From assembly GCA_035221665.1 (NCBI GenBank), contig CM069155.1, positions 29,760,001-29,824,000 on the forward strand: a stretch of 64,000 bases of DNA, in the 5' to 3' direction. Of this stretch, positions 12,091 through 58,944 are shown piece by piece. A program made the position numbers and the translations under genes. A model generated the notes under the pieces. That model made no database searches, was not told the DNA's origin, and saw nothing but the letters and a program-made list of their open reading frames with translations. How positions within the stretch are numbered: the first letter of the stretch is position 1; every line of letters begins with the position of its first letter. The DNA is from Okamejei kenojei. Taxonomy: Eukaryota.

Positions 12091-12340
12091 TGTACCGAGA
12101 TAGAAATGTACCGAGATAAATTGTACCGAGATACTCGACACCAAATCCTTATTTACCTTGGAAATAATTTGACACAGGAAGAATCTGGCAACTTCTGATT
12201 GGCGCAACACGCATTCTGATTTGACTGTTGAGGGATAGATAAGGAACTCGTGGTGACGACTTGTCATACGGTTCATAAGCGACCCGGAGAGAAACACTGA
12301 GAAGCCACTTCACCTGGCGTTCTCCGCTCAATTAATTACA
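12091..12340 (+). promoter_or_regulatory. Putative IgL cluster 1 proximal promoter
   Basis: 3x TGTACCGAGATA, inverted CCAAT (GATTGG), GATAGATAA and E-box CACCTG (12311-12316); block conserved upstream of all three leaders. Confidence 0.5.
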
Positions 12341-12389
12341 ATGTCTTGCTGGATCTCTCTAGTCTACGCGTTAGCGTTTTCCGCAGTTT
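12341..12389 (+). CDS. IGL: IgL cluster 1 leader exon
   Basis: ATG plus hydrophobic MSCWISLVYALAFSAV, then GTGAGT donor at 12390. Confidence 0.92.
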
Positions 12390-14576
12390 GTGAGTATTTA
12401 CTTCAACCGACATGATATTTAATCTCGAGTACGAGTAAACCTTTCTATCCGTGATATTTCTGCTGTTTCTCTGATATTAGTTAATATTCTACTCTTTTCT
12501 GTTTTGTTTTTCAGATATAAATGCGCAATTTGCAGTAAATCAGCCGTCTTCAAAATCCACATCTCTGGGACAAAACGTGGAAATAGCCTGTACCCTGTCT
12601 GGCGGCAGTTTAGGTAGTAGTTATGTTTCCTGGTACCAGCAGATTTCAGGAACGGTTCCGCGGTATTTGTTCTGGTATTACTCGGGCAGCAGCATTTACA
12701 GAGGCTCTGGAGTTTCCGAACGTTTCTCCGGATCAGTGTCAGGCAACACTGCAACATTGAAAATATCGAACGTGCAGTCGGGGGACGCAGCGGATTACTA
12801 CTGTGCTGTGTGGAAAGATGCTTTAATTTTCGGCAAAGGAACGAGGCTGGGTATTGGCAGTAAGTAAAATACCTTCTATCTTTGTGTAGACACAAAAAGC
12901 TGGAGTAACGCAGCGAGACAGGCAGCATCTCTAAAGAGATGGAAAGGGTTGGAGGAAGGAACTGCAGATGTTGTTTAAAACGAAGAGAGACACAACAAGC
13001 AGGATAGGCAGCATCTCTGGAGGGAATGAATGGGTCTGCAGTTCCTTTCTGCATATTCTATCTTTGGGTTCATGATATTGCAGTGAAAAGTAATTGGTTT
13101 TCTGTCGCTAATCGATGGTTTTTAAAAAAGCGTTTAACGCTAATATGTTCAGCGTTCGACCAAAGTCGATTTTTCTTTGGCAAATCATTAGACGTAGCTC
13201 TATCAAAGGGCTGATGCCAGGCTGGCTGTTTGTATTTTTTACACTAAATAGCTAAAATAAAAGGTATTTAAAGCAGATATTTTTTAAATTTCCGGCCACG
13301 ATCGCGTCTTTTTGGGCGAATTAGTCGACAACAGCATTGAAAGGAGTAAACGGCTGTCCAGCTGTTTTATTATTCTTAATTACTTTGCGGACGGCGAGCT
13401 AACAATTATCAAACCTGGATAAGAATTAGACGGAACGTAAAGGAACGGGAAATAACTTTAGAGGGACAAGGAATTGCAGATGCTGGTGTACAAAAAAAGA
13501 CACAAAGCTCTGGAGTGACTCAGCGGGTAGGGCAGCATCTCTGGTGAACATGGATAGGTAAGTTTCGGTTCGGGTCCCTTTTTCAAATCAGTTTTGTTTC
13601 GTGTGACATCTTATAACGCATTTTGTTTTTATGCCATTAAGCGAAAGGAATAAGATTCGCTATTCAACTTTAGAAATCTGAGCTGAATTATTACTTCAAA
13701 GAGAAGAGATGGGTCGAGAACAACAAACATATACGTTTCAGCATTAATGTAAATCATATCAACGATTATTTATAATGCGTGAAAACGATAAATTTAGCGT
13801 TGCTGCTAATCTAGTCTGTTCATCGATGGCTAAAACGGCAAAATATTCTTGTCGCTAAAATCCAACCATTAGTAACATTTCGATATCAGGTCTTAACAAA
13901 TGAACAGATTAATTAAGGAAAGGCATTCAAACAAAACTAAAGTTTTAAACGAGTTTAGTGGAACTTTGGCTGCAATGAAACCCCGCAACTGGATGGCGGG
14001 TAAAACAATCGTTTTCTTTTTAATTGTAGCTGGAGCCAATGGAAAAAATACACTGCAGATCAAATAAAAACACTGCCGAAATAATAGCTTTTACCCCACT
14101 GCCACATATTCTACTCCATTACCATAAATAGCAGTTATTTTTTGGTGTTCTCACTTGGAACGAATGCTATACCAATTGTATTTTTAACAAAGATAATATT
14201 TTAACCGAAGCAGTTCTGCTAGCCCTACTAATCTGTGACTTTATTTGAAATAGAACCTCAGCCGCCCGCGGTGTCCGTCCTTGGGCCTTCAGCGCAAGAA
14301 ATGACGGGAAAGGGAACCGCCACCCTTGTGTGTTTGGTGAACGGGTTTAATCCGGGTGCTGTGGAAATTGACTGGACTGTGGACGGCAGTGCGAGAAGTG
14401 ATGGCGTCGAAACCAGCCCAATCCAACAGGAGGCGGACAACACGTTCAGTGCGAGCAGTTACCTGACTCTGCCAGCCACAGTCTGGAACTCACACGACCT
14501 TTACTCCTGTGTGGTTAAACACGAGTCGCAGGCAAGCCCGGTGCAGGAAAACATCGCCAGGTCCGGCTGTCTGTAA
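12341..14576 (+). CDS. IGL: Ig light chain minicluster 1, germline-joined L-VJ-C (exons 12341-12389, 12515-12859, 14254-14576), lambda/type II-like C
   Basis: Spliced ORF reads MSCWISLVYALAFSAVYINA-QFAVNQPSS...C...WYQQ...DAADYYCAVWKDALIFGKGTRLGIG-KPQPPAVSVLGPS...ATLVCLV...YSCVVKHE...SGCL*. Introns are phase-1 GTGAGT/CAG and GTAAGT/TAG. Confidence 0.95.
12515..12859 (+). CDS. IGLV: IgL cluster 1 fused V-J exon
   Basis: Pyrimidine tract + CAG acceptor; V-set Cys, WYQQ and DxADYYC run directly into FGKGT; GTAAGT donor at 12860. Confidence 0.95.
14254..14576 (+). CDS. IGLC: IgL cluster 1 constant exon
   Basis: C1-set domain ATLVCLVNGFNPG...W.VDG...SSYLTL...WNSH.LYSC.VKHE with penultimate Cys for the H-L disulfide; CTAAT branch-like motif and TAG acceptor. 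Confidence 0.95.
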
Positions 14577-14870: not shown

Positions 14871-16933
14871 TTTCTTTCTTTTAAAATCTTTTTATTGGGG
14901 TTTTTTTTCCAAAGGTAACAGAAATAAAACTTTTTTTTAAATCTGAGGGGAAAAAAAGTAATAAACATAACAATGATATTGATACATAGCGATCAGGATT
15001 ACATTAGTAACAGGTATAACCTGATATGAGACCAATGTCAAAATACACATTGAGTATTGACCTCCCGGCCCCTATGTAAATATAGATAAATCTTTAAAAG
15101 AAAACGTATGAATGTTGACAAAAACATAAAAAGAAAAAGACAAAAAGAAAAAGAAAAAAGCAAAAAGCAAAACCCCACTAAACTAAAAAAAATATATCCA
15201 CCATATAGAAGTAAAATAGATTTAATAACGGTTAGCAATTTATATTGTATGAAAGTGTTCAATAAATTTTCTCCGAGTCTTATCAAAAGTAACCAAGGGC
15301 TCAACAATGTCACTCATAATTGTTTCTAAATTTAAACACGATGTTGTTTCAGAATACTACTGGAGTGTGGTCGGAGGATTGGAGTATTTCCATTAAAATA
15401 AAATAGATCTTCTGGCGATTAGTGTGGTAAAAGCAATCAACCGATGGGCGGATCGGGACAGATGAATAGAATCTAACGTTGGTAGCCCACAATTGCAATA
15501 ATAGGATGTGGTTGTAAATCAATACCCAAGACTACAGAAATAGTATCAAAAATGTCTTTCCAATATTTTTCCAAAAGTGGGCAGGACCAAAACATGTGGG
15601 TCAGAGATGCCAGTTCAGAGTTACATCTGTCACAGGTAGGATTCATTTGACCACAAAAGCGAGCTAACTTATCTTTTGACATATGAACTCTGTGAACCAC
15701 TTGAATTGTATCAAAGCGTGTCTTGCACATATTTATTAACTAATCGAAGAATCCTCGCCCATTTCTCTATAGATAAAAAAAGTTTTGGAGTTCTCTTTCC
15801 CAGTCATTCTTAATTTTAGCAAATGTATCTATTTGTAATTTCAAAATCATCTCATAAATAGTCGTTATTAATCCTTTCTGATGCAGGTTCAGCTGTAAAA
15901 ATAATTCCAACATTTCGGTTTGATGTGGTAGCGAAGAAAGGGGTAGAGTTGCATTCAAAAAGTGTCTAATTTGTAAATATCTAAAAAAGTGTGAATTAGG
16001 TAAGTTATATTTATTGGAGAGTTGTCCGAAAGACATAATACAACCCTGCAAAAACAAATCACGAAAAGCAACTAAACCCTTCCTCTTCCATAACAAAAAG
16101 ACTTGATCATTACTAGATGGTTGGAAAAGAAAATTGGATAAAATAGGACTCGATAAGATAAAATCATTTAGTCCAAAAAACTTACGAAATTGTAACCATA
16201 TTTGGAGCGTATGTCTTATTATTGGGTTTGTCGTATATTTATTCGATCTCGTAATTGTGAAAGGTAACGAAGCCCCTAGAATAGAGGCCAATGATAGCCC
16301 TTGTAAGGAATCACGTTCGAGGTTTATCCGTCCTGGACATTGGGTATCTTCTAAATCTTTTGTCCAAAATGTTAAATAACGAACATTGACTGCCCACTAG
16401 TAAAATCTAACGTTCGGCAATGCCAAACCGCCACTTATGTTTTATTTCTGTAAATGTTTTTTACTTAGTCTGGGATTTTTGTTCTGCCTCCTACATGAAG
16501 ACATTTTGGAGTCTATAATGTCAAAGAAATATTTGGCAATAAAAATTGGTATCGTCTGAAATAAATACAGATATTTAGCTAAAATGAACATTTTCATAGC
16601 ATTGATTCAGCCAATTAGGGATAAGGACATTGGTGACCGTTTAGTAAACTGATGTTTAATATGGTCAATTAAAGGCATAAAATTGGCTTTAAATAAATCC
16701 TTGTGTTTCTTGGTGATCTTAATGCCTAAATAAGGAAAACTTTCGGTAGTCGATCTAAATGGAAACTGACCATAATTCAAAACAAGATTATTTAATGGAA
16801 AAAGCTCACTCTTACTAAGATATAGTTTATAACCAGAAAAACTACTGAATTGATTAAGTAATGCTACTATTGCCGGAATAAATTTCTCAGGCTTAGAAAT
16901 AAATAATAACAGATCATCTACGTAAAGAGATAG
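14871..16933 (-). mobile_element. 5'-truncated L1 inserted just 3' of the cluster 1 polyA site
   Basis: SLYVDDLLLFIS, FSGYKL and CDRC...LTHMFWSC motifs; T-rich tail; 14-bp TSD CAAATACAACTCTC at 14857-14870 and 16934-16947; absent after C2 and C3. Confidence 0.92.
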
Positions 16934-17469
16934 CAAATACAACTCTCGACTAAAATCAATAATTCAATCTGAAGAGCAATACATTTGTTGGATTTGTATT
17001 TCTAATCAGAGAAAATCAAATGTATTTAATCAACCTTCATTATTTTACCTTATGGAAGAACCAGTGATAAATGGTGCCGAACGTTATGTTATAAACTGGT
17101 GTGATTATAAATTGGTTCACATAGTCGCACGCGCGCACACGCACACACACGAACAAAATGGCGCGCTCATGTAGAAACGCGTTCGAGGACAGATATTAAT
17201 CGTTATATGTGACCTTGCTAATACTATTCACTTAGCAATTCCATGCTATTTCATCTGTGAGTGAAACGGGTGGGGCTGGTGGTGAGTGAGAGTAATATGG
17301 TCTTTCTGCATTTATATAGGGCGCTAGCACACATGGAGTATCACATATAGTTTTATTTTCCTCGCCTAATAGAGGTACTGAAGTTCTTGGTTGGTTCCTG
17401 CTGAGCTGAGTAGCGGGATAAGTGCACGCTGCGAGGAACGACTGAGAAGCGTAGCCTACCTCTCATCCA

Positions 17470-28562: not shown

Positions 28563-28611
28563 ATGTCTTGCTGGATCTCTCTAGTCTACGCGTTAGCGTT
28601 TTCCGCAGTTT
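28563..28611 (+). CDS. IGL: IgL cluster 2 leader exon
   Basis: Identical to the cluster 1 leader; GTGAGT at 28612. Confidence 0.92.
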
Positions 28612-31253
28612 GTGAGTATTTACTTCAACCGACATAATATTCAATCTCGAGTACGATTAAACCTTTCTATCCATGACGATTTTGCTGCTTCTCTGATATT
28701 AGTTAATATTCTACTTTTTTCGGTTTGTTTTCCAGATATAAATGCGCAATTTGCAGTAAATCAGCCATCTTCAAAATCCACATCTCTGGGACAGGACGTG
28801 GAAATAGCCTGTACTCTGTCTGGCGGCAGTTTAGGTAGCAGCACCGTTTCCTGGTACCAGCAGATTCCACGAACGGTTCCGCGGTATTTGTTCTGCTATT
28901 GGTCGGGCAGCAGCATTTACAGAGGCTCGGGAGTTTCCGAACGTTTCTCCGGATCAGTGTCAGGCAACACTGCAACATTGAGAATATCGAACGTGCAGTC
29001 GGGGGACGCAGCGGATTACTACTGCGCTGTGTGGAAAGATGCTTTAATATTCGGCAAAGGAACGAGGCTGGGTATTGGCAGTAAGTAAAATACCTTCTAT
29101 CTTTGGGTCGACACAAAAAGCTGGTGTGCCGCAGCGAGACAGGCAGCATCTCTGCAGAGAAGGAAAGGGTTGGAGGAAGGAACTGCAGATGTTGGTTTAA
29201 ACCGAAGACAGGCACAACAAGCTGCATAGGCAGCATCTCTGGAGGAAATGAATGGGTCTGCAGATCCTTTCTGCATATTCTATCTTTGGGTTAATGATAT
29301 AGCAGTGAAAAGTAATTGGTTTTCTGTCGCTAATCGATGCTTCAATGAAAAAGCGTTTAACGCTAGTATGTTCAGCGTTCGACCAAAGTCGAGTTTCCTT
29401 TGGCAAATTATTAGACGTAGCTCTATCAAAGGGCCCAGTGTTAGGCCGGCTGTTTGTAATTTTTTACACTAAATAGCTAAAGTAAAGGGTATTTAAAGCT
29501 GATTTTTTTAAATTCCCTGCCACGATCGTGTCTTTTTTCGTAAATCAGTTGACAACAGCAAAGATAGGAAGAAACGGCTGTCCAACTGTTTTATTATTCT
29601 TAATTACTTTGCGGACGGCGAGCTAACAATTATCAAACCTGGATAAGAATTAGACAGAACGTAAGTGAACGGGAAATAATTTTGGAGGGACATGAAACTG
29701 CAGATGCTGGTTTTAAAAAAAGCCACAAAAAGCCATGTTCACCAGTGTTCACTCAGCGGGTCACTGGTGAACATGGATAGGTAAGTTTCGGTTCGGGAAA
29801 CTTCTTCAAATCAGTTTTGTTCCGTGTGACATCTCAAAACGCATTTTGCTGTTGTGCCATTAAGCGAAAGGAATAAGATTCGCTATTCCACTTCCGAAAT
29901 CTGAGCTGAATTATTACTTCAATGAGAAGAGACGGGTCGAGAAATGACAAACATATACGTTTCAGCATTAATGTAAATCATACCAACGACTATTTAACAT
30001 GCGAGAAAACGGTAAATTTAACGTTGCTGCAAATCTAGTCTGTTCATCGATGGCAAAAACGGCAAAAATATTCTTGTCGCTAAAATCCAACCATTAGTAA
30101 CATTTCGGTATCTGGTCTTAATAAATGAACAGATGAATTAAGGGAAGATATTTAAAGAAAAGTAAAGTTTTAAGCGAGTTTAGTGAAACTTTCGCTGCAA
30201 TGAAAACCTGCAACTGGCTGTCGGGTAAAACACTGTTTTTTTTTATTGTAGCTGAAGCCAATGGAAATAATACTCTGGAGATCAATTAAAAACACTACCG
30301 AAATAATATATGCGTATATTCTGTCCCATTGTCATAAATAGCAGTTACTTTTGGGGGATCTCACTTGGAACGAATGAATCCATGCAGGGCCGAATTAAGA
30401 CCCATATACGCCCGAAGCACTTAAAAGATGTTGGTGTCCCCATACATATGTAATTCAAAATATAAACAATAATAAACCATTAAAAAAATTATTATTTTTC
30501 TAAATGAAACAAAACTAACAGTAAGAAGGAAAATAATGTTTATTTTGTATACTTCCACTTTATTTATATTTGAAAATTTTTCTCATACTTTTTTTAATTG
30601 CAAAGTCTTTGATCAGATCCTCAAAATTAATCTTACGTAACACATCTGTTTCTATACTTAGTCGGGATAAGGGATCCAGCCTGCCTTGTTGCATAGTTGA
30701 AATTATATTTCAGATCGTATAAACCACTTCGAATATTATATTAGCAAGTTTAAAGTGATTTATTTTGTGCCGTAAACCATTTACCATTTCCCTTGATGCA
30801 CGAGCTTATTTTGCTTATTGGTTGATTTAGCCCTGAATCCATGCTATACCAACTGTATTTTTAACAAAGTTAATGTTTCAACCGAAGCAGTTCTGCTAGC
30901 CCGACTAATCTGTGACTTTATTTTAAATAGAACCTCAGCCCCCTGCGGTGTCCGTCCTTGGGCCTTCAGCGCAAGAAATGACGGGAAAGGGAACCGCCAC
31001 CCTTGTGTGCTTGGTAAACGGGTTTAATCCGGGTGCTGTGGAAATTGACTGGACTGTGGACGGCATTGCGAGAAGTGATGGCGTTGAGACCAGCCGGATC
31101 CAACAGGAGGCGGACAACACGTTCAGTGCGAGCAGTTACCTGACTCTGCCAGCCACAGTCTGGAACTCACACGACCTTTACTCCTGTGTGGTTAAACACG
31201 AGTCGCGGGCAAGCCCGGTGCAGGGAAACATCGCCAGGTCCGGCTGTCTGTAA
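28563..31253 (+). CDS. IGL: Ig light chain minicluster 2, germline-joined L-VJ-C (exons 28563-28611, 28736-29080, 30931-31253)
   Basis: Same exon sizes (49/345/323 nt) and splice sites as cluster 1; reading frame open. Confidence 0.95.
28736..29080 (+). CDS. IGLV: IgL cluster 2 fused V-J exon
   Basis: QFAVNQP...CTLSGGSLGSSTVSWYQQ...YYCAVWKDALIFGKGTRLGIG; GTAAGT at 29081. Confidence 0.95.
30385..30835 (-). mobile_element. Non-autonomous hAT DNA transposon in the cluster 2 J-C intron
   Basis: Imperfect TIRs CAGGGCCGAATTAA / TTGATTTAGCCCTG; 8-bp TSD AATCCATG (30377-30384, 30836-30843); minus-strand STMQQGRLDPLSRLSIETDVLRKINFEDLIKDFAIKK resembles a hAT dimerization-domain C-terminus. Confidence 0.88.
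30931..31253 (+). CDS. IGLC: IgL cluster 2 constant exon
   Basis: TAG acceptor ends at 30930; C1-set ORF to TAA at 31253. Confidence 0.95.
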
Positions 31254-39300: not shown

Positions 39301-42300
39301 TCAGGGAATGTTGCCGACTGGCCCGCTGCAGACTGCAGGAGTACGTGCTGAGGGACGCACTGAAGCTCGGTGCAGCCAACGCCAAGGCTCGGTGGGGGAG
39401 GGCCACAGTCTAAGGCCCTTCCGCTGCTGGACATGGGGGGTACAGTATTGTGGAGACGCCCCTCAATATAAGGGAAGGTATCCCACGCCATTGTGGCATG
39501 AGTGGGGGACTGATTTGTGGAAACTTGGGAAAAAGAAAATGTCTAAACTGTATTGATCTATTGTACAGCCTCCGAAAATGTCGGATGGATTTTCCGCAAG
39601 GTTAATGTATTGTATATATTTATCATTCGAATAAAGTATATTTTGAAATATAAAAAAAAAAAAAGCATTGAACGATTGGAACTGCGGCTGGATTCATACT
39701 GGAGCATCCACGATGCGGAGAAAGTCGTGGATAGCACGTACAGTGAGTTGGTCACACCGCAGGCAAACGGTAAGAGGACAAGAAGGGAACGGGTGGCCAA
39801 TAGCCAGCAAAGCAGTAGGCAGGTAGTGCAGGAGTCCCCTGCGGTCATCTCCCTCCTAAACAGGTATACCATTTTGGATACTGTTGAGGGAGATGGCTCA
39901 TCAGGGGAATGCAGCAGCAGCCAGGTTCATGGCACCATGGGTGGCTCTGCAGCACATGAGGGGGGAAAAAAGAGGGGAAGGGCAATAGTAATAGGGGATT
40001 CAATTGTCAGGGGAATAGATAGGCGTTTCTGCGGCCGCAAACGAGACTCCAGGATGGTATGTTGCCTCCCTGGTGCAAAGGTCAGGGATGTCACTGAACG
40101 GCTGCAGAACATTCTGGAGGGGGAGGGTGAACAGCCAGTTGTCGTGGTGCATGTTGGCACCAACGATATAGGTAAAAAAAAGGGATGAGGTCCTACAAGG
40201 TGAATTTAGGGAGCTAGGAGATAAACTTAAAAGTAGGACCTCAAAGGTAGTAATCTCCGGATTACTACCAGTACCACGGGCCAGTCAGAGTAGAAATAGG
40301 AGGATAATGCAAATGAATACGTGCTTGAAAAGTGGTGCAAGGGGGAGGGATTCAAATTTTTAGGGCACTGGGACCAGTTCTGGGGGAGGTGGGACCAGTA
40401 CAAACAGGACGGTTTTGCACCTGGATTGGAATGGAACCAATGTTCTTGGGGGTGTTTTGCTAGTGCTGTCGGGGAGGATTTAAACTAATGTGGCAGGGGA
40501 TGGGTACAAGAGCAGAGAGGCAGGAGGGTGTAAAATGAGGGTAGAAGCATTAGGTAGCAAGGTGAAAAGTAAAAGTGGCAGGCAGACAAAACCAAGGCAA
40601 AAATCAAAAAGGGCCACTTTTCAGCAAAATTGTATTAGGGGTAAGTGCGTTGTAAAGACAAGCCTGAAGGCTTTGTGTCTCAATGCAAGGAGTATTCGTA
40701 ATAAGGTGGACGAGTTGAACGTGCAGATAGATATTAATGATTATGATATAGTTGGGATCACGGAGACATGGCTCCAGGTGACGTCGGCTGGGAGCTGAAC
40801 ATCCAGGGATATTCAATATTCAGGAGGGATAGAGAGAAAGGAAAAGGAGGTGGGGTAGCGTTGCTGGTTAGAGAGGAGATTAACGCAATGGAAAGGAAGG
40901 ACATTAGCTTGGAGGATGTGGAATCGGTATGGGTAGAGCTACAAAACACTAAGGGGCAGAAAACGCTGTGGGTGTTGTGTACAGGCCACCTAACAGTAGC
41001 AGAGAAGTTGGGGATGGTATCAAACAGGAAATTAGAAATGCGTGCGACAAAGGCAAAACAGTTATAATGGGTGACTTCAATCTACATATAGATTGGGTTA
41101 ATCAAATTGGCAGGGTGCTGAGGAAGAGGATTTTTTGGAATGTATGCGGGATAGTTATCTAAATCAACGTGTAGAGGCACCAACGAGAGAGCAGGCTATT
41201 TTAGACTGGTTTTGAGTAATGAGGAAGGGGTAATTAGCCGTCTTGTTGTACGTGCCCCCTTGGGCAAGAGTGACCATAATATGGTTTGAGTTCTTCATTA
41301 GGATGGAGAGTGACATTGTTAATTCAGAAACAATGGTTCTGAACTTAAAGAAAGGTAACTTTGAGGGTATGAGACGTGAATTGGCCAAGATTGACTGGCA
41401 ATTAATTCTAAAAGGGTTGACGGTGGATATACAATGGAAGACATTTAAAGACTGCATGGATGAACTACAAAAATTGTTCATCCCAGTTTGGCAAATGAAT
41501 AAATCGGGGAAGGTAGTGCATCCGTGGATAACAAGGGAAATCAGGGATAGTATCAAAGCAAAGGATGATGCGTACAAAGTAGCCAGAAAAAGCAGCATAC
41601 CAGAGGACTGGGAGAAATTCAGAGACCAGCAGAGGAGACAAAGGGCTTAATTAGGAAAGGAAAAATAGATTATGAAAGAAAACTGGCAGGGAACATAAAA
41701 ACTGACTGCAAAAGTTTTTATAGATATGTGAAGAGAAAGAGGTTAGTTAAAACAAATGTAGGTCCCTTGCAGTCAGAAACAGGTGAGTTGATCATGGGGA
41801 ACAAGGATATGGCGGGCCAATTGAATAACTACTTTGGTTCCGTCTTCACTAAGGAAGACATAAATAATCTGCCTGAAATAGCAGGGGACTGTGGGTCAAA
41901 GGAGGAATTGAGTGAAATCCAGGTCAGTCGGGAAGTGGTGTTGGGTAAATTGAATAGATTAAAGGCCGATAAATCCCCAGGCCAGATAGGCTGCATCCCA
42001 GAGTACTTAAGGAAGTAGCTCAGGAAATAGTGGATGCATTAGTGATAATCTTTCAAAACTCTTTAGATTCTGGAGTAGTTCCTGAGGATTGGCGGGTAGC
42101 AAATGTAACCCCTCTTTTTAAGAAGGGAGGGAGAGAGAAAACGGGGAATTACAGACCAGTTAGTCTAACATCGTAGTGGGAAAACTGCTAGAGTCAGTTA
42201 TTAAAGATGGGATAGCAGCACATTTGGAAAGTGGTGAAATCATTGGACAAAGTCAGCACGGATTTACAAAAGGTAAATCATGTCTGACGAATCTTGTGGA

Positions 42301-43529
42301 ATTTTTCGAGGATGTAACTAGTAGCGTGGATAAGGAGAACCAGTGGATGTGGTATATCTGGACTTCCAGAAGGCTTTCGACAAGGTCCCACATAAGAGAT
42401 TAGTATACAAACTTAAAGCATACGGTATTAGGGGTTCAGTATTGATGTGGATAGAGAACTGGCTGGCAAACAGGAAGCAAAGAGTAGGAGTAAACAGGTC
42501 ATTTTCACAATGGCAGGCAGTAACTAGTGGGTACCGCAGGGCTCAGTGCTGGGACCCCAGCTATTTACAATATATATTAATGATCTGGATGAGGGAATTG
42601 AAGGCAATATCTCCAAGTTTGCGGATGACACTAAGCTGGGGGCAGTGTTCGCTGTGAGGAGGATGCTAGGAGACTGCAAGGTGACTTGGATAGGCTGGGT
42701 GAGTGGGCAAATGTTTGGCAGATGCAGTATAATGAATGGGATAAATGTGAGGTTATCCACTTTGGTGCAAAAACAGAAAGCAGACTATTATTTAAATGGT
42801 GGCCGATTAGGAAAAGGGGAGATGCAGCGAGACCTGGGTGTCCATGGTACACCAGTCATTGAAAGTAGGCATGCAGGTGCAGCAGGCAGTGAAAAAAGCA
42901 AATGGTATGTTAGCTTTCATAGCAAAAGGATTTGAGTACAGGAGCAGGGAGGTTCTACTTCAGTTGTACAGGGTCTTGGTGAGACCACACCTGGAGTATT
43001 GCGTACAGTTTTTGGTCTCCAAATCTGAGGAAGGACATTATTGCCATAGAGGGAGTGCAGAGAAGGTTCACCAGACTGATTCCTGGGATGTCAGGACTGT
43101 CTTATGAAGAAAGACTGGATAGACTCGGTTTATTGAGAGGGGATCTTATAGAAACTTACAAAATTCTTAAGGGGTTGGACAGGCTAGATGCAGGAAGATT
43201 GTTCCCGATGTTGGGGAAGTCCAGGACAAGGGGTCACAGCTTAAGGATAAGGGGGAAATCCTTTAAGACCGAGATGAGAAAGACTTTTTTCACACAGAGA
43301 GTGGTGAGTCTCTGGAACTCTCTGCCACAGAGGGTAGTTGAGGCCAGTTCATTGGCTATATTTAAGTGTGAGTTGGATGTGGCCCTTGTGGCTAAGGGGA
43401 TCAGAGGGTATGGAGAGAAGGCAGGTACGGGATACTGAGTTGGATGATCAGCCATGATCATATTGAATGGCGGTGCAGGCTCGAAGGGCTGAATGGCCTA
43501 CTCCTGCACCTAATTTCTATGTTTCTATG
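36062..43529 (+). mobile_element. Full-length CR1 LINE (repeat 5' UTR, zinc finger + SGNH esterase ORF1, APE-RT ORF2) with nested Tx1
   Basis: ORF1 CSACNMW...CRKC at 36594 resumes at 39665 (ERLELRLD...GDSIVRG...HVGTND); ORF2 has LNARSIRNK, GDFN, KAFDKV and FADD; (TTTCTATG)2 tail; ATGA shared at both junctions; empty site near 21450. Confidence 0.93.
36711..39664 (+). mobile_element. 5'-truncated Tx1-clade LINE inserted in CR1 ORF1
   Basis: GRGTWKLN, KTPGSDGLPAE, NWRPITLLNVDYKIL, LDQEKAFDRI, GVRQGCPLSP, YMDD and a C-terminal CPRDGC...ETVAHLFTEC motif; AATAAA 39630-39635; poly(A) 39652-39664. Confidence 0.9.
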
Positions 43530-44021
43530 ATCCTGTACTTGGTTAAATAACTCCCATATGCTAGCTGTGGATATGCTCAATAACAACTGCTCACAAGCTC
43601 CTGCCTAATGACATTTTAATCTGTTTTGCTTCTGTAAACATCCAGACCAATCCTTATCCAAGCCAATATTAAACCTTGTAAAGTTGTGGTCACTATCCCC
43701 AAGTGCTCTTCCAGCATACCATCAGTCACCTGGCCAAGCTCATTTCCCAACACAAGGTGCAGTATCGTCCCTCCCGGATTCAGACTATCCATACACCGTT
43801 TAAGGCAAATTTCTTGGATATACTTCATAAATTCTGCCTCATTTAACCCCCTTGCACTGAACATAAAACAGTCAATATTGGGGAAGTTAACCATACGCAC
43901 TACAACAACACTGTAGTCCATGCATCTGTTTGCGTATCCGATCCATCTTCCGCTGATTATTTGGTGTCCCATAATATAATCCCATTGGAGAGACTGTTCC
44001 TTTGTTATTTTTAAGCACAAC

Positions 44022-47000
44022 TTCCTGTTTGGAAGAAACAGCAGCAAAGAGAAGCAGGAAAAAGCACTGATTGGCTCTAGCCCGAGTGGGAGGAGCGTTA
44101 GAAGTTAGTCAGCGGGGGAAAACAGTTGAAAAGGAGAGGCAAAGCACAGGCAGACTTAACTCACAGCTCCCGTGGGTTTTGATGAAACTGCAGCAAAGAG
44201 AAGAAGGGAAAAGCACTGATTGACTCTAGCCCGAGTGGGAGGCGAGTTAGAAGTGAGTCAGAGGGGTGAAACAGTTGAAAAGGAGATACAAAGCACAGGC
44301 AGACTTAATTCAGAGCTCCCGTGGATGTTGCAGAAACAGCAGCAAAGAGAAGCAGGAAAAAAGCACTGATTGGCTCTAGCCTGAGTGGGAGGAGAGTTAA
44401 GTCATTCAGAGGGGAAACGGTTGAAAATGAGAGGCAAAGCACAGGCAGACTTAACTCAGAGCTCCCGTGGATGTTTCAGAAACAGCAGCAAAGAGAAGCA
44501 GGAAAAAGCACTGATTGGCTCTAGCCCATGTGGGATGAGAGTTAGAAGTGAGTCAGAGGGGGAAAACAGTTTAAAACTGAGGAATTTGGTTTGTAAATTG
44601 GTAAATTAGGCAATTTATCAGTCAATATAAGCATGACGACTCTTAGGGAGCGGTAGTGAGGGAGCGGCCTTGTGGGTAAAGTGTGAGACTTTGGCTCGAG
44701 AGGCTTCGGAGAGGAGGCTACCAATCAAGGTTGAGAGGATGGAACACGGTGAACACATGTCATGGAAGATGAGACAGTGTGACGCTTGCAGAATGTGGGA
44801 GCCCAGGGACACAGATGGAGCCTCTGGCTGCTACTACTGTGGCAAGTGCGTTCAGCTTCAGCTCCTAAAGGACCGTGTTGAGGCACTGGAGAAGCAGCTG
44901 GATAACCTCAGGGCCATCCGGGAACATGAGAGTTTCCTGGACAGGACCTATAGTGAGATAGTCACGCCGAGGATACGGGAAGAACCAAGGTGTGTGATGG
45001 AGAGAAAGTGTGGAAATCGTGGAGTGCAGAAGGCCCAGGTGGCTGTGCCTAATGAAAACAGGCACGCCCTCTTGGGAAATGTCCGGGGAGATTATGTTTC
45101 CAGTCCGAGCGGCGGACACGTCAGTGGCTCCAATCCTGGAGATGGCTCGACCGGCGAGACCCACGTCGGGCGGAGCCCTAGTGGTGGGTGACGCCTTTGT
45201 CCGAGGAGTGGACAGGAGATTCTGTGGCAGCAGACAAGATGCGAGGATGGTCTGTTGCCTCCCTGTGCCAGGGTTCAGGATGTCGTGAGCCGAATTCTGA
45301 ACATCCTCGAGAGAGAAGGTGAACAGCCGGCAGTGGTTGTGCACACAGGCACAGACGACATCGGGTAGAAGAGGAAGGAGATTCTCCAACATGACTTCAG
45401 AGAGTTGGGAAGAAGACTGAAATGTCGGACTTCTAGTGTGGTTATCTCTGGATTGCCTCCAGTACCACGTGCTAGTGAGGACAGGAACAGCGAGATAGGG
45501 GATCTGAATGTGTGGCTGAGGGACTGGTGCAGAGAGCAAGGATTTAGATTTATAGACCACTGGCATCTCTTCTGGGGTAGGGGTGACCTGTACAAAAGGG
45601 ATGGGTTACACCTTAACTGGAGGGGGACCGACAATCTGGCAGGCAGGTTTGCTAGGCCTACATGTGTGGGTTTAACCTAAATAGTGGGGGGGAGGGATTG
45701 ACAAATTGGGAGTATAAAGATGGAGTTGAAGAGGAAGTGGCTACAGGAAAAATTACAAAAGATGCTCGAATTAATGGGAAGGAAAGCTTGAGAATGGAAA
45801 ACATAGTAAGGTCATGGCCAATTGCATGCGGTGCGAGGGGGGAAGTGAATACGGAGGTCAAAGTACTGCATATGAATGCACGAAGTATAAGGAATAAAGT
45901 GGACGAGCTTGAGGCTCAGTTAGAAACTGGCAAGTATGATGTTGTGGGAATTACTGAGACATGGCTGCAAGAGGGCCAGGGCTGGGAACTGAATATTCAA
46001 GGTTATACCTCTTATCGAAAAGACAGACAGTTGGGCAGAGGGGGTGGGGTTGCCCTGCTGGTGAGGAATGAAATTCAGTCCCTTGAAAAGGGTGACATTG
46101 AAACAGGAGATGTGGAGTCAGTATGGATAGAACTATGGAATTGTAAGGGTAAAACAACCCTAATGTGCCTAATCTACAGGCCCCCAAACAGTAGCCTGGA
46201 CATAGGGCGCAAGTTGAATCAGGAGTTAAAATTGGTATGTAGTAAAGGTAATGCTGTGGTTGTTATGGGAGATTTCAACATGCAGGTAGACTGGGAAAAT
46301 CATGTTGGTACTGGACGCCAAGAAAAGGACTTTGTAGAGTGCCTTCGTGATGGATTCTTTGAACAGCATGTATTGCAGCCTACCAGGGAGAAGGCAATTC
46401 TGGATTTAGTGTTATGTAATGAACCGGATTTGATAAAGGACCTCGAAGTTAATGAGCCCTTAGGAGGCAGTGACCATAACATGGTCAGGTTTAATCTACA
46501 ACTCGAGAGGGAGAAGAGTAGATCGGAGGTGTCAGTGTTGCAGTTGAATAAAAGGGACTATGGGGCGATGAGGGAGGAGCTGGCCAAAGGAGACTGGAAA
46601 GATACACTAACAGGGATGACAGTGGAACAAAAATGGCAGGTGTTTCTAGGAATAATACAGAAGGTGCAGGATCAGTTCATTCCTAGGAGGAAGAAAGATG
46701 CCAAAGGGATAAAGGGACGACCATGGCAGACAAGGGATGTCAGGGACAGTATAAAAATTAAACCGAAGAAGTACAACGTAGCAAAGATGAGCGGGAAGCA
46801 AGAGTATTGGGTAATGTTTAAAGAACAACAGAAGATAACCAAAAAGACAATACTGGGAGAATAGATGAGGTACGAAGGTAAGCAAGCCAAGAATATAAAA
46901 CAGGATAGTAAAAGCCTCTTTAGGTATGTGAAGAGAAAAAAATTAGTTAAGACCAAAGTTGGACACTTGAAGACTGAAAAAGCTGAATTTATTATGGGGA

Positions 47001-48508
47001 ACAAGGAAATGGCAGATGAGTTGAACAGGTACTTTGGATCTGTCTTCACTAAGGAGGACACAAACAATCTTCCTGATATAGAAGTGGCCAGAGGATTTGG
47101 GGTGACTGAGGAACTGAAGGAAATATACATTAGACAGGAAATTGTGTTGGATACACTGACGGGCTGAAGGCTTATATATCCCCAGGGCCTGCTGGTCTGC
47201 ATCTCCGGGTACTTAAGAAAGTGGTTCTAGAAATCGTGGATGCATTGGTGATAATTTTCTAATGTTCTATAGACTCAGGATCAGTTCCTGTGGATTGGAG
47301 GGTAGCTAATGTTATCCCACTTTTTAAGAAAGGTGGGAGAGAGAAAACGGGGAATTATAGACCAGTTAGCCTGACATCGGTGGTGGGGAAGATGCTGGAG
47401 TCAATTATAAAAGATGGGATAGCCGAACATTTGGATAGCAGTAACAGGATCGGTCCGAGTCGGCATGGATTTACGAAGGGGAAATCATGCTTGACTAATC
47501 TTCTGGAATTTTGTGAAGATGTAATAGTAAAATAGACACGGGAGAGCCTGTGGATGTAGTGTGCTTGTAACATTAGCAAATTTGCAGATGACTCAAAGCT
47601 GGGTGGCAGTGTGAACTGTGACGAGGATGCTATGTGAATACAGGGTGACTGGGACAGATTGGGGGAGTGGGCAGATGCATGTCAGATGAAGTTTAATGCA
47701 GATAAAAGTGAGGTTATCCACTTCGGTAACAAAAACAGGAAGGCAGATTACTATCTAAATGGCGTCAGGTTGGGAAAAGGGGAAGTACAACGGGATCTGG
47801 TGGTCCTTGTACATCAGTCTATGAATGTAAGCATGCAGGTACAGCAGGCAGTTAAGAAAGCGAATGGCATGTTTAACTTTATGACAAGAGGAATCGAATA
47901 TAGGAGCAAAGTCCTTCTGCAGTTGTACGGAGCCCTAGTGAGACCACACCTGGAGTATTGTGTGCAGTTTTAGTCCCCTAATTTGAGGAAGGACAGTCTT
48001 GCTATTGAAGGAGTGCAGCGTAGGTTTACAAGGTTAATTACCGGGATGGCGGGACTGTCATATCCTGAGAGAATAGAGCAGCTAGGGTTGTACACTATGG
48101 AGTTTAGAAGGATGAGTGGGTGTCTCATTGAAACATATAAGATTGCGTAAGGGCTTGGACACGCTAGAGGCAGGAATCATGTTCCCAATGTTGGGGGAGT
48201 CCAGAACCAGGTGCCACAGTTTAAGTATAAGGGGTAAGGCATTTAGAACGCAGACAAGGAAACACTTTTTCTCACAGAGAGTGGTGACTCTGTGGATTTC
48301 GCGGCCTCAGAGGGTGGTGGAGACAGGTTCTCTGGATGCTTTCAAGAGAGAGCTAAATAGGGCTCTTACAAATTGCGGAGTCAGGGGATATGGGGAGAGG
48401 GCAGGTACGGGGCACTGATTGGGGATGATCAGCCATGATCACATTGAATGGCGGTGCTTGCTCGAAGGGCCGAGTGGCCTACTCCTGCACCTATTGTCTA
48501 TTGTCTAT
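44022..48508 (+). mobile_element. Near full-length CR1 LINE of a second family, degenerate, with an internal RT deletion
   Basis: ORF1 CDACRMW...CGKC plus esterase; APE ORF 45662-46864; RT jumps from DVV to NISKFADD at ~47566; (CTATTGT)n tail. Confidence 0.92.
44035..44577 (+). repeat. About 3.7 x ~149-bp tandem repeat in the CR1 5' UTR
   Basis: Monomers start at 44035, 44184, 44333 and 44479; each carries CTGATTGG or a variant. Confidence 0.9.
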
Positions 48509-49474
48509 AAAGCTGTTTGTTAAATTGTGTCAAAGAGGGGTGCCTATATACATTTGTGTGAATTCTGGTTTACTGGTATGCCCACCAGACTATGCAAATA
48601 AAATGGGGCAATAGGGTCTCCCACCTTTTGGGGTTAGCAATGGTGTTAGACAAGGGGGAGTTTTGTTCCCAGTCCTTTTTAATGTTTATATTGATGATCT
48701 GTCCAAGCAACTGAAAGCCTGTAATACTGGGTGCATCATTGGTAATATTTTAGTGAACCATATTATGTACGCAGATGATCATGTGGTCTTTAGTCCATCT
48801 AGCGCTGGTCTCCTGCAGCTCCTTGCTATATGTTCTGTGTATGGTGTGGAACATGATATTAAATATAATGCTTGTAAGAATTATGTTATGTTCTGAAGAA
48901 CCAAAGAAGTTAAATGTCTAAAATGTCCTGATTTTAAATTGTCTGACAATAATCTTAGTGTCTGTAATAAGGTAAAATATCTTGGGCATTTGATGGCAGA
49001 ACAAATGACAGATTATGAGGATATTTATAGGCAATGGCACATGCTGTATGTACAGGCGAATATTCGCTTGCGTAAGTTTGGAGCCTGTACAGACGTGGTG
49101 AAGATGTTGCTGTTTGGAGCATGTTGCACACCACTCTACACTGCGCATCTGTGGTCGAACTACGGAAAGACAAGTTTACAGAGACTAAAGGTGCCCAATA
49201 ATAATGCCATGAGAACACTGCTAAGGAAACGTGGATGGTGTACTACTAATAACATGTTTGCGGCGTCAGGAGTCAGTACTTTAAAAGCTATCCTAAGAAA
49301 TCATATGTATAAATTCATTTGCAGGATAAATGACTCGAAAAATGTAATTATCGTGGCCTTGTCAAATATAAGGTATAGCACTGCACGCTACGAATCCCAG
49401 TTGTGGAGACATTGGTATGGCTGTCTCGTTGTAGGACATCGATCTTTTATATTCTGGATTTTAAATCATGTATT
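48509..49474 (+). mobile_element. Same RTE-X-like retrotransposon, copy 3, truncated at both ends by the CR1 and DIRS events
   Basis: ORFs 48663-48896 and 48939-49502 are homologous to copies 1 and 2. Confidence 0.8.
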
Positions 49475-56723: not shown

Positions 56724-56772
56724 ATGTCTTGTTGGATCTTTCTAGTCTATGCGTTAGCGTTTTCCGCAGATA
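56724..56772 (+). CDS. IGL: IgL cluster 3 leader exon
   Basis: MSCWIFLVYALAFSAD; GTGAGT at 56773. Confidence 0.9.
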
Positions 56773-58944
56773 GTGAGTATTGACTTCTACCGACATGACA
56801 TTTAATCTCGAGTACGATTAAATCTTTCTATCCGTGATATTTCTGCTGTTTCTCTAATATTAGTTAATATTCTACTTTTTTCTGGTTTGTTTTCCAGATC
56901 TAAATGCGCAATTTGCAGTAAATCAGCCGTCTTCAAAATCCACATCTCTGGGACAGAGCGTGGAAATACCCTGTACTCTGTCTGGCGGCAGTTTAGATAA
57001 CAGAGCGATTTCCTGGTACCAGCAGATTCCAGGAACGGTTCCGCGGTATTTGATCTACTATTACTCGGGCAGCAGCATTTCCAGAGGCTCGGGAGTTTCT
57101 GAACGTTTCTCCGGATTAGTGTCAGGCAACACTGCAACATTGACAATATCGAACGTGCAGTCGGAGGACGCAGCGGATTACTACTGTGCTGTGTGGAATG
57201 ATGCTTTCGTCTACGGCAAAGGAACGAGCCTGGGTATTGGCAGTAAGTAAAATACCTTCTATCTTTGGGTTAGACACAAAAAGCTGGTGTGACGCAGCGA
57301 GACAGGCAGCATCTCTGGAGAATTACAGAGTTATGAGGAAGTTACTGCAGGTTGGTTTAAACCGAAGATAGACACGACAAGCTGGATAGGCAGCATCTCT
57401 GGAGGGCATGAATGGGTCTGCAGTTCCTTCCTGCATATTCTATCTTTGGGTTAATGATATTGCAGTGAAAAGTAATTGGTTTTCTGTCGCTAATCGATGG
57501 TTCAAAGAAAAAGTTTTAACGCTAATATGTTCAGCGTTCGACCAAAGCCTAGTTTCCTTTGGCAAATTATTCAAAGGGGCTGATTCTCGGCCGACTGTTT
57601 GTATTTTTGACACTAAATAGCTGAAATAAAAGATATTTAAAGCTGGTATTTTTTAAATTCCCGGCCATGATCGAGTATTTTTGGCAAATTAGTTGACAAC
57701 AGCAATGAAAGCACTACACGGCTGTCCAGCTGTTTTATTATTCTTAATTACTTTGTGGACGGCGAGATAACAAATATCAAACCTGGATAAGAATTAGACC
57801 GAACGTAAGGAAACGGGAAATAACTTTGCAGGGACAAGGAACTGCAGATGCTGATTTATAAAAAAAGACACAAAGCTCTGGAGTGACTCAGCGTGTAGGG
57901 CAGCATCCCTGGAGAACATGGATAGGTGACTTTCGGTTCGGGTCCCTTCTTCAAATCAGTTTAGTTCCGTGTGACATCTTATAACGCATGTTGCTGTTGT
58001 GCCATTAAGCGAAAGGAATAAGATTCGCTATTCAAACTTCAGAAATCTGAGCTGAATTATTACTTCAAAGAGAAGAGACGGGTCAAGGAAAAACAAACAC
58101 ATACGTTTCAGGATTAATGTAAATCATATCAACGACTATTTAAAATGCGAGAAAACGGTAAATTTAACGTTGCTGCAAATTTAGTCTGTTCATCGATGGC
58201 CAAAACGACAAAATATTCTTGACACTAAAATACAACCATTAGTAACATTTCGGTATGTGGTCTTAATAAATGAACAGATGAATTAAGGGAAGGTATTTAA
58301 ACAAAACTAACGTTTTAAGCGAGTTTAGTGGAACTTTGGCTGCAATGAAAACCCACAACTGGCTGTCGGGTAAAACACTCTTTTTTTTTGTATCTGAAGC
58401 CAATGTAAATAATACTCTGGAGATCAAATAAAAACACTGCCGAAATAATATATTTTACGCTACTGCGTATATTCTGTCCCATTGCCATAACTAGCAGTTA
58501 TTTTTTGGAGATCGCACTTGGAACGAATGAATCCATGCTTTACCAACTGTATTTTTAACAAAGATGTTTTAACCGAAGCAGTTCTGCTAGCCCTACTAAT
58601 CTGTGACTTTATTTTGAATAGTACCTCAGCCCCCCGCGGTGTCCGTCCTTGGTCCTTCGGCGCAAGAATTGACGGGAAAGGGAACCGCCACCCTTGTGTG
58701 TTTGGTGAGTGGGTTTAATCCGGGTGCTGTGGAAATTGAGTGGACTGTGGACGGCAGTGCGAGAAGTGATGGCGTCGAAACCAGCCCAATCCAACAGGAG
58801 GCGGACAACACTTTCAGTGCGAGCAGTTACCTGACTCTGCCAGCCACAGTCTGGAACTCACACGAGCTTTACTCCTGTGTGGTTAAACACGAGTCGCGGG
58901 CATGCCCGGTGCAGGGAAACATCGCCAGGTCCAGCTGTCTGTAA
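56724..58944 (+). CDS. IGL: Ig light chain minicluster 3, germline-joined L-VJ-C (exons 56724-56772, 56898-57242, 58622-58944)
   Basis: Same exon sizes and splice sites; open frame; J motif reads YGKGT. Confidence 0.92.
56898..57242 (+). CDS. IGLV: IgL cluster 3 fused V-J exon
   Basis: ...PCTLSGGSLDNRAISWYQQ...YYCAVWNDAFVYGKGTSLGIG; GTAAGT at 57243. Confidence 0.93.
58622..58944 (+). CDS. IGLC: IgL cluster 3 constant exon
   Basis: TAG acceptor 58619-58621; C1-set ORF ending SSCL*. Confidence 0.94.

What the first reader, a model, noticed from the sequence alone, without database searches (positions are those of the whole stretch)
12515..12859. Atypical V domain (7-residue CDR2, short FR3) on a lambda/type II-like C: possibly a distinct L-chain V family
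Seen: WYQQISGTVPRYLFW-YYSGSSI-YRGSGVSERFSGSVSGNTATL, i.e. CDR2 of 7 residues by IMGT-style counting. From recalled sequences (not verified here), classical shark type II lambda V has a short 3-residue CDR2 and a longer FR3, while long CDR2s typify sigma/sigma-cart, VpreB and IGLV4/5-like V. The C exon (ATLVCLVNGFNPG, VETS.IQQEADNTFS, WNSH.LYSC) looks type II lambda. Inference: this may be a poorly described lambda-related lineage (lambda-2-like, or a V/C-shuffled isotype) that exists only in pre-joined form.
Basis: partly seen in the sequence, partly recalled or inferred. Interest (0 to 1): 0.7.

Follow-up and report, generated by a model that had tools for sequence, protein, structure and literature searches.

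The report
Second skate lambda V-gene family
This is a ready-joined antibody lambda light-chain gene, likely from a skate, whose variable part belongs to a second family with a longer binding loop and a different promoter; that family occurs across sharks and rays and may have been overlooked.

Summary
Observation confirmed, interpretation partly. The window holds three intact germline-joined leader-VJ-C light-chain clusters. CDR2-IMGT is 7 residues. FR3 is the standard 36, short only against classical shark type II (38). The C exon is plain chondrichthyan lambda (type II), so this is not a new isotype, and it fails the lambda-2 hallmark (CDR2 of 2-3). The V, however, does not nest in described type II: it forms its own supported clade (98/92) seen in 17 shark, skate and ray species, while 14 of 14 non-genome GenBank lambda entries examined are short-CDR2. 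In this genome at least 19 long-CDR2 VJ exons form an array about 0.5 Mb from about 11 classical ones. C exons group by host lineage, not by V family. The promoters differ: perfect octamer in 10 of 10 classical loci but 1 of 19 long ones; an inverted CCAAT box in 19 of 19 against 0 of 10. Spliced contigs of close relatives exist. Whether the family is sister to classical type II or to the tetrapod long-CDR2 (IGLV5-like) group is unresolved. It is in RefSeq only as automatic models; I found no description, but could not read the key papers.

The parts
12195..12279 (+). Predicted promoter: inverted CCAAT box (12195-12202), apparently split octamer (12219-12226), GATA-like site (12237), TGACG half-site (12254), TATA-like element (12274)
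   Evidence: function inferred
12341..12389 (+). Leader exon, cluster 1
   Evidence: ATG..GT; joint 12389>12515 GT..AG in a contig of run X3
12515..12859 (+). Germline-joined VJ exon, long-CDR2 lambda family (CDR2 12676-12696; CDR3 12805-12828)
14254..14576 (+). Lambda (type II) C exon, ends with the Cys typical of light chains and a stop
   Evidence: joint 12859>14254 GT..AG in X3 and a bridging contig in X1
28563..28611 (+). Leader exon, cluster 2
28736..29080 (+). Joined VJ exon, cluster 2 (CDR2 7)
30931..31253 (+). C exon, cluster 2
56724..56772 (+). Leader exon, cluster 3
56898..57242 (+). Joined VJ exon, cluster 3 (CDR2 7)
58622..58944 (+). C exon, cluster 3

Best explanation
An intact, germline-joined immunoglobulin lambda (type II) light-chain cluster, likely of a skate, whose V belongs to a second, old elasmobranch lambda V family with a 6-8-residue CDR2; it is likely transcribed without V-J rearrangement, spliced leader-VJ-C into a 238-residue precursor, and predicted to pair with heavy chains like any light chain. 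Shown: exon structure, open frame, no RSS, CDR lengths, a separate V clade, lambda-type C, a tandem array beside the classical array, different promoter motifs. Inferred: expression of this very copy (shown only for relatives about 90% identical in other organisms); heavy-chain pairing; that diversity comes from gene copies plus somatic mutation rather than junctions; that C exons are homogenised between the two V families by conversion or unequal crossover; that an insertion of about 11 bp split the octamer in most long-family clusters, leaving a CCAAT/GATA/CRE-type promoter and so possibly a different level or timing of expression.
For: Three clusters with canonical splice sites, each giving 238 aa; no 12/23 RSS match in the window. 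Own genome: 19 intact long-CDR2 VJ at C25:29.35-29.87 Mb and 10 fetched classical VJ (plus one in L075) at 30.40-30.64 Mb. V framework tree: long family 12 rows 98/92*, classical type II 10 rows 100/97* holding all four non-genome GenBank rows included; skate long + skate short as one clade rejected, p-AU 0.003. Long family in 17 of the 22 chondrichthyan species tallied. C tree: long and short mixed, grouped by host lineage, 12 changes of the label; window C 67-80% identical to classical lambda C against 38% to sigma-cart C. Framework identity 53-57% to short-CDR2 lambda-like V of lungfish and tetrapods, 33-39% to sigma-cart, 30-34% to sigma. AlphaFold model pLDDT 95, ordinary V-set fold, top Foldseek hits antibody light chains, TMq up to 0.93. 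Spliced contigs of relatives. Octamer 1 of 19 v 10 of 10; CTGATTGG 19 of 19 v 0 of 10. All cartilaginous-fish lambda genes are germline-joined (PMC5192425, PMC4279169, passages).
Against: The V tree has only 79 columns and its deep structure is poor (sigma and sigma-cart fall inside kappa). Sisterhood with classical type II is weak (82/84; 97 SH-aLRT in the quick tree), and the AU test did not reject grouping the family with the tetrapod long-CDR2 group (0.37), sigma (0.30), sigma-cart (0.16) or kappa (0.15); under the mixture model the tetrapod grouping scored 11.5 lnL above the quick free tree. No lambda-2 and no shark kappa sequence was in the trees. The runs with spliced contigs are not on record as RNA and come from other organisms. 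Promoter counts are of related copies, not independent events. No clear positive selection: pN/pS 0.56 in frameworks and 0.78 in CDR1+2 for the window's subfamily.
Confidence: 0.85

Rival explanations
1. The V family is the elasmobranch counterpart of the long-CDR2 lambda group of lungfish and tetrapods (IGLV5-like; IGLV4/9 and VpreB by recall), so two lambda V clans already existed in the jawed-vertebrate ancestor. This is a variant of the best explanation about ancestry, not about isotype.
For: Same 7-residue CDR2 and similar FR2/CDR2 motif in crocodile P0106 and unnamed P0137, which also lack the FR3 insertion; not rejected, p-AU 0.745 and higher likelihood than the quick free tree, 0.37; sterlet true lambda also has a long CDR2 (PMC5985310 supplement 7, read by eye).
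Against: Both free trees put the family next to classical chondrichthyan type II; LG+G4 prefers that by 9.2 lnL; framework identity to the long group (51-56%) is no higher than to short-CDR2 lambda (53-57%); a different shark chain, P0161, takes the place in the tetrapod long group (90/86).
Confidence: 0.22
2. A separate light-chain isotype: lambda-2-like, or a sigma-cart V placed on a lambda C.
For: CDR1/CDR2 lengths 8/7 equal the sigma-2 signature (PMC5985310), and the start of FR3 resembles that of own-genome sigma-cart V; long + sigma-cart not rejected by AU (0.16); promoter differs from classical lambda.
Against: C is lambda and shared with the classical family; V framework only 33-39% identical to sigma-cart, which also has a 2-residue FR3 insertion absent here; lambda-2 has short CDR1 and CDR2 and a very different V and C (example read by eye); promoter and leader align with the classical lambda ones, and one long-family cluster keeps the octamer.
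Confidence: 0.06
3. Already described as part of shark/skate type II diversity in papers I could not read.
For: Dozens of RefSeq models exist; the published lambda CDR2 range is 3-7; Rast 1994 was not tried and Criscitiello 2007, Iacoangeli 2017, Hsu 2016, Matz 2021 and Flajnik 2024 were not held.
Against: All 80 listed members of 10 long-family clusters are genome models; 14 of 14 non-genome entries are short-CDR2; ten literature searches gave no description.
Confidence: 0.3

Closest known systems
Cartilaginous-fish IgL lambda (type II / NS3), e.g. little skate AAA59379.1, spiny dogfish AES93017.1, sandbar shark lambda
   Same: Cluster organisation, germline-joined VJ, split leader, lambda C (67-80% identical), CDR1 of 8, same chromosome region in this genome
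   Different: CDR2 6-8 instead of 2-4, no FR3 insertion, different FR2, V framework about 50% identical and V DNA 58-69% (below the 75% family criterion), CDR3 8 in 19 of 19 copies, octamer mostly lost and CCAAT box present
RefSeq 'immunoglobulin lambda-1 light chain-like' models of Amblyraja, Leucoraja, Rhinoraja, rays and sharks (e.g. XP_032898932.1)
   Same: Same V family; 89% over the V query, 92% over C
   Different: Automatic names only; not told apart from classical type II
Tetrapod/lungfish long-CDR2 lambda V (IGLV5-45 of titi monkey KAL0625701.1; crocodile XP_019394942.1)
   Same: 7-residue CDR2 on a lambda framework
   Different: Somatically rearranging (established knowledge), most carry the FR3 insertion; orthology unresolved
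IgL sigma-2 (sigma-cart, type I)
   Same: CDR1/CDR2 8/7, germline-joined in skates
   Different: V 33-39%, C 38% identical; other chromosomes here (C26, C581)
IgL lambda-2 of ray-finned fish
   Same: Lambda-related name only
   Different: Short CDR1 (5-7) and CDR2 (2-3); not reported in cartilaginous fish (PMC5985310)

Membership tests
IgL lambda (type II) of cartilaginous fish | C exon groups with chondrichthyan lambda C | tested here: met
   inside the 38-row chondrichthyan lambda C group (91/88); 67-80% identity
IgL lambda (type II) of cartilaginous fish | V-J joined in the germline, one V-J-C per cluster | tested here: met
IgL lambda (type II) of cartilaginous fish | V groups with lambda V | tested here: inconclusive
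   free trees and identities favour lambda, but AU does not reject sigma, sigma-cart or kappa affinity on 79 columns
IgL lambda (type II) of cartilaginous fish | Expressed and paired with IgH | tested here: inconclusive
   spliced contigs of relatives only; pairing not testable
Classical type II V family | Short CDR2 (2-4) with FR3 insertion | tested here: not met
Classical type II V family | V nests among described type II V; at least 75% DNA identity | tested here: not met
   separate clade; 58-69% DNA identity to the 10 classical loci
Classical type II V family | Octamer promoter (as in this genome's classical loci) | tested here: not met
IgL lambda-2 | Short CDR1 (5-7) and CDR2 (2-3) | tested here: not met
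   8 and 7 here
IgL lambda-2 | V and C group with ray-finned lambda-2 | not tested
   no lambda-2 sequence was returned as a stored protein; one example compared by eye only
IgL sigma-2 (sigma-cart) | CDR1/CDR2 of 8/7 | tested here: met
IgL sigma-2 (sigma-cart) | C groups with sigma-2 C | tested here: not met
   38% identity, separate in the tree
IgL sigma | CDR2 of 9-10 and sigma C | tested here: not met
Tetrapod long-CDR2 lambda group (IGLV5-like) | One clade with IGLV5-like V | tested here: inconclusive

The most novel reading that the evidence does not exclude
Sharks and rays carry an undescribed second lambda V lineage that is the counterpart of the IGLV5/VpreB-type long-CDR2 group of tetrapods, fixed as pre-joined genes and driven by an octamer-independent promoter; in skates it has outgrown the classical family and serves as a separately regulated, innate-like or early light-chain repertoire.
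Probability: 0.15. Interest if true: 0.72.

Novelty: new variant of a known kind. Interest (0 to 1): 0.42.

Why it matters
Shark lambda is treated as one germline-joined isotype, and CDR1/CDR2 length is thought to be what sets light-chain isotypes apart functionally (PMC5985310, PMC5192425). A second lambda V family with a sigma-2-length CDR2, kept in both sharks and batoids and more numerous than the classical one in this genome, would mean that non-rearranging lambda genes gain breadth through two loop architectures on one homogenised C, and that earlier V-probe or primer counts of type II genes could have missed many of them. The promoter split gives a natural test of octamer dependence of light-chain expression. 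It is a refinement for comparative immunology, not a new mechanism.

Tried and rejected
One search (near-length protein search with the V alone) found nothing; the longer-length search did. ESM Atlas gave no answer. No RNA holder was listed for the stretch; X9 covered only repeats. The second read-laying, on other organisms' runs, did not complete, so the joined state and promoter in other species were not checked at DNA level. The 88-row careful tree did not finish; its quick tree is reported, and 54 hand-picked rows were used for the careful tree, dropping TCR/NITR-like and redundant rows; the VH outgroup was dropped for the AU tests (53 rows). A loose 23-RSS match in L020-L025 lies upstream of V, near the leader, on the opposite strand and was taken as chance. 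pN/pS gave no clear signal. The Fisher p on octamers is not used, since copies are related. No orthologue of shark chain P0161 in this genome (best 52%). The search of earlier findings returned nothing. Ten paper searches found no description of the family. Rejected: lambda-2, new isotype, somatic rearrangement in the sampled tissue (three near-identical joined copies here, orthologues joined in many assemblies), pseudogene (frames and splice sites intact).

Full report
What is there. The window contains three same-strand light-chain clusters, each leader - joined VJ - C, with canonical splice sites and an open 238-residue product. Clusters 1 and 2 sit in a tandem unit of about 16.2 kb, 88-95% identical; cluster 3 lies 28 kb further on. 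No 12- or 23-spacer RSS was found on either strand of the window. The best database matches are skate gene models (89% over V, Amblyraja radiata; 92% over C), so the host is probably a skate (inference).

Observation. By IMGT-style anchors the V has CDR1 8, CDR2 7, CDR3 8 and a 36-residue FR3. That FR3 is the common length; it is short only against classical type II, which has a 2-residue insertion. The model folds as an ordinary V domain (pLDDT 95), and its best structural matches are antibody light chains, which does not separate isotypes.

Own genome. The V search gave 19 intact long-CDR2 VJ exons (CDR2 6-8; CDR3 8 in 19 of 19) at C25:29.35-29.87 Mb, plus broken ones, and a second array of classical short-CDR2 VJ on the other strand at 30.40-30.66 Mb, of which 10 were fetched as loci and one more seen in L075. 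Counts are lower bounds (150 of 256 candidates scored). Sigma-like genes are on C28 and sigma-2-like genes on C26 and C581; these labels rest on CDR lengths from PMC5985310 Table S5 and on comparison by eye with its supplement. Window V DNA is 80-97% identical to eight long copies, 67-73% to ten others and 58-69% to the ten classical ones, so by the 75% rule used in PMC5985310 the long group is a different V family and itself has subfamilies.

Spread. Among 117 classified full-length chondrichthyan chains are long-CDR2 genome models (one of them the divergent P0161), 57 are short genome models and 14 are short non-genome GenBank entries; one row (P0309) was not parsed. The long family occurs in 17 of 22 species: skates, stingrays, manta, sawfish, sawshark, sevengill, horn, carpet, ground and mackerel sharks. 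It was not seen in the four elephant shark entries. One search listed only 120 of 1449 hits, so absences are weak. The 14 entries (dogfish 6, elephant shark 4, sandbar 3, little skate 1) are taken to be cDNAs because they have no contig; that AAA59379.1 is the skate type II of the 1994 literature is my inference. All 80 listed members of ten long-family clusters are genome models.

Trees. On 79 framework columns, CDRs removed, the long family is one clade (98/92) and classical type II, with all four GenBank rows included, is another (100/97); they are sisters at only 82/84 (54 selected rows). AU tests reject only the grouping of skate long with skate short (p 0.003); affinity to the tetrapod long-CDR2 group, sigma, sigma-cart or kappa is not rejected, and under the mixture model the tetrapod grouping beat the quick free tree. 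So distinctness is shown and ancestry is open. Since the classical clade includes chimaera, the split likely predates the chimaera-elasmobranch divergence, but excluding chimaera was not rejected either (p 0.11). Tree labels such as IGLV1/3/4/6-like were my recall; only P0131 was confirmed (IGLV5-45), and P0169 proved to be gecko. No lambda-2 or shark kappa row was available. The C tree is clearer: window C lies inside chondrichthyan lambda C, long and short C are interleaved and pair by host (horn shark 92%, great white 92%, catsharks 92%; bootstrap not fully settled). One C isotype serves both V families, probably homogenised by conversion or unequal crossover (inference).

Promoter. All 10 classical loci have a perfect octamer 280-310 bases before the mature V; only 1 of 19 long loci does, while 19 of 19 long and 0 of 10 classical loci have CTGATTGG, an inverted CCAAT box. 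The alignment suggests an insertion of about 11 bases inside the octamer in the long loci other than L018 (14 loci aligned). These are related copies, so this is about one or two events. That the octamer is the main light-chain promoter element is established knowledge; PMC2193156 notes it in nurse shark kappa genes (passages).

Expression. In run X3 contigs join 12389>12515 and 12859>14254, both GT..AG; in X1 one contig covers 12635-12859 (23 differences, no gaps) and continues at 14256. These are other organisms and not on record as RNA, but the joints match the predicted introns, so close relatives are spliced. This copy's expression is not shown.

Mechanism. Most likely a functional lambda light chain made without RAG recombination, contributing a longer C'-C'' loop to the antigen site; breadth comes from many germline copies and, by analogy with shark light chains in general (PMC5192425, passages), somatic mutation. 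Selection tests were uninformative.

Literature. Seen: PMC5985310 (abstract, passages, sections 29 and 30, supplements: Table S5, Figure S9, part 3 and passages of Figure S7; file 14 not searched); passages of PMC5192425, PMC4279169, PMC2193156, PMC12227049, PMC10751288, PMC9614664, PMC6901605 (one reference); abstract of PMC2192082. They state four isotypes in cartilaginous fish, all lambda genes joined, lambda CDR2 3-7, lambda-2 CDR2 2-3 and lambda-2 not found in cartilaginous fish. None of the passages seen mentions two lambda V families. Ten searches found no description, but Criscitiello 2007, Iacoangeli 2017, Hsu 2016, Matz 2021 and Flajnik 2024 were not held and Rast 1994 was not seen, so prior description remains about 30% likely.

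Verdict. A real, probably under-recognised second V family of elasmobranch lambda with its own promoter type; a variant of a known system, not a new isotype. Interest 0.42.

Noticed in passing
P0161 (basking shark XP_078408980.1), P0194 (great white XP_041058998.1): A third, divergent pre-joined-looking light chain: CDR2 6 with FR3 insertion, V grouping with the tetrapod long-CDR2 group (90/86), C only 49-55% identical to lambda C and 42% to sigma-cart C. Its accession is adjacent to a long-family lambda gene. No orthologue in this genome. A better candidate for an unrecognised isotype than the finding itself.
   Followed up: partly
window 12195-12279; L001-L030 upstream regions: Octamer split and CCAAT box in the long family against intact octamer in the classical family; L018 keeps both.
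   Followed up: partly
G000:C25 29.31-29.72 Mb and 30.45-30.66 Mb (L067-L077): Several broken lambda clusters (frameshifts or stops in V or C) among intact ones, consistent with birth-and-death turnover.
   Followed up: no
G000:C26, C581, C28 (L061-L066): Only three sigma-cart-like and two or three sigma-like clusters surfaced, against at least 89 type I clusters reported for little skate (PMC2192082 abstract); the search was not aimed at them, so this is a lower bound. Sigma V and J appear joined in L063 and L064.
   Followed up: no
window 28736-29080 and 56898-58944: Extra cysteines: at IMGT 55 in cluster 2 V (also L012) and near the end of cluster 3 C.
   Followed up: no
P0024-type versus P0294/P0303-type shark V: Two sub-lineages of the long family in sharks (CDR3 mostly 9 versus 8); catsharks have both, batoids seen only with the second.
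   Followed up: partly
window 12887-13035, 13466-13561; 15767-16963; 41721-49475: High-copy short repeats in the J-C intron and LINE-like fragments between clusters (ORFs, recognised by recall; repeats).
   Followed up: no
P0053, P0076, P0078, P0085, P0099, P0119, P0138: Unnamed multi-V-domain proteins whose domains group with sigma-cart V (88), some with a transmembrane-like tail.
   Followed up: no
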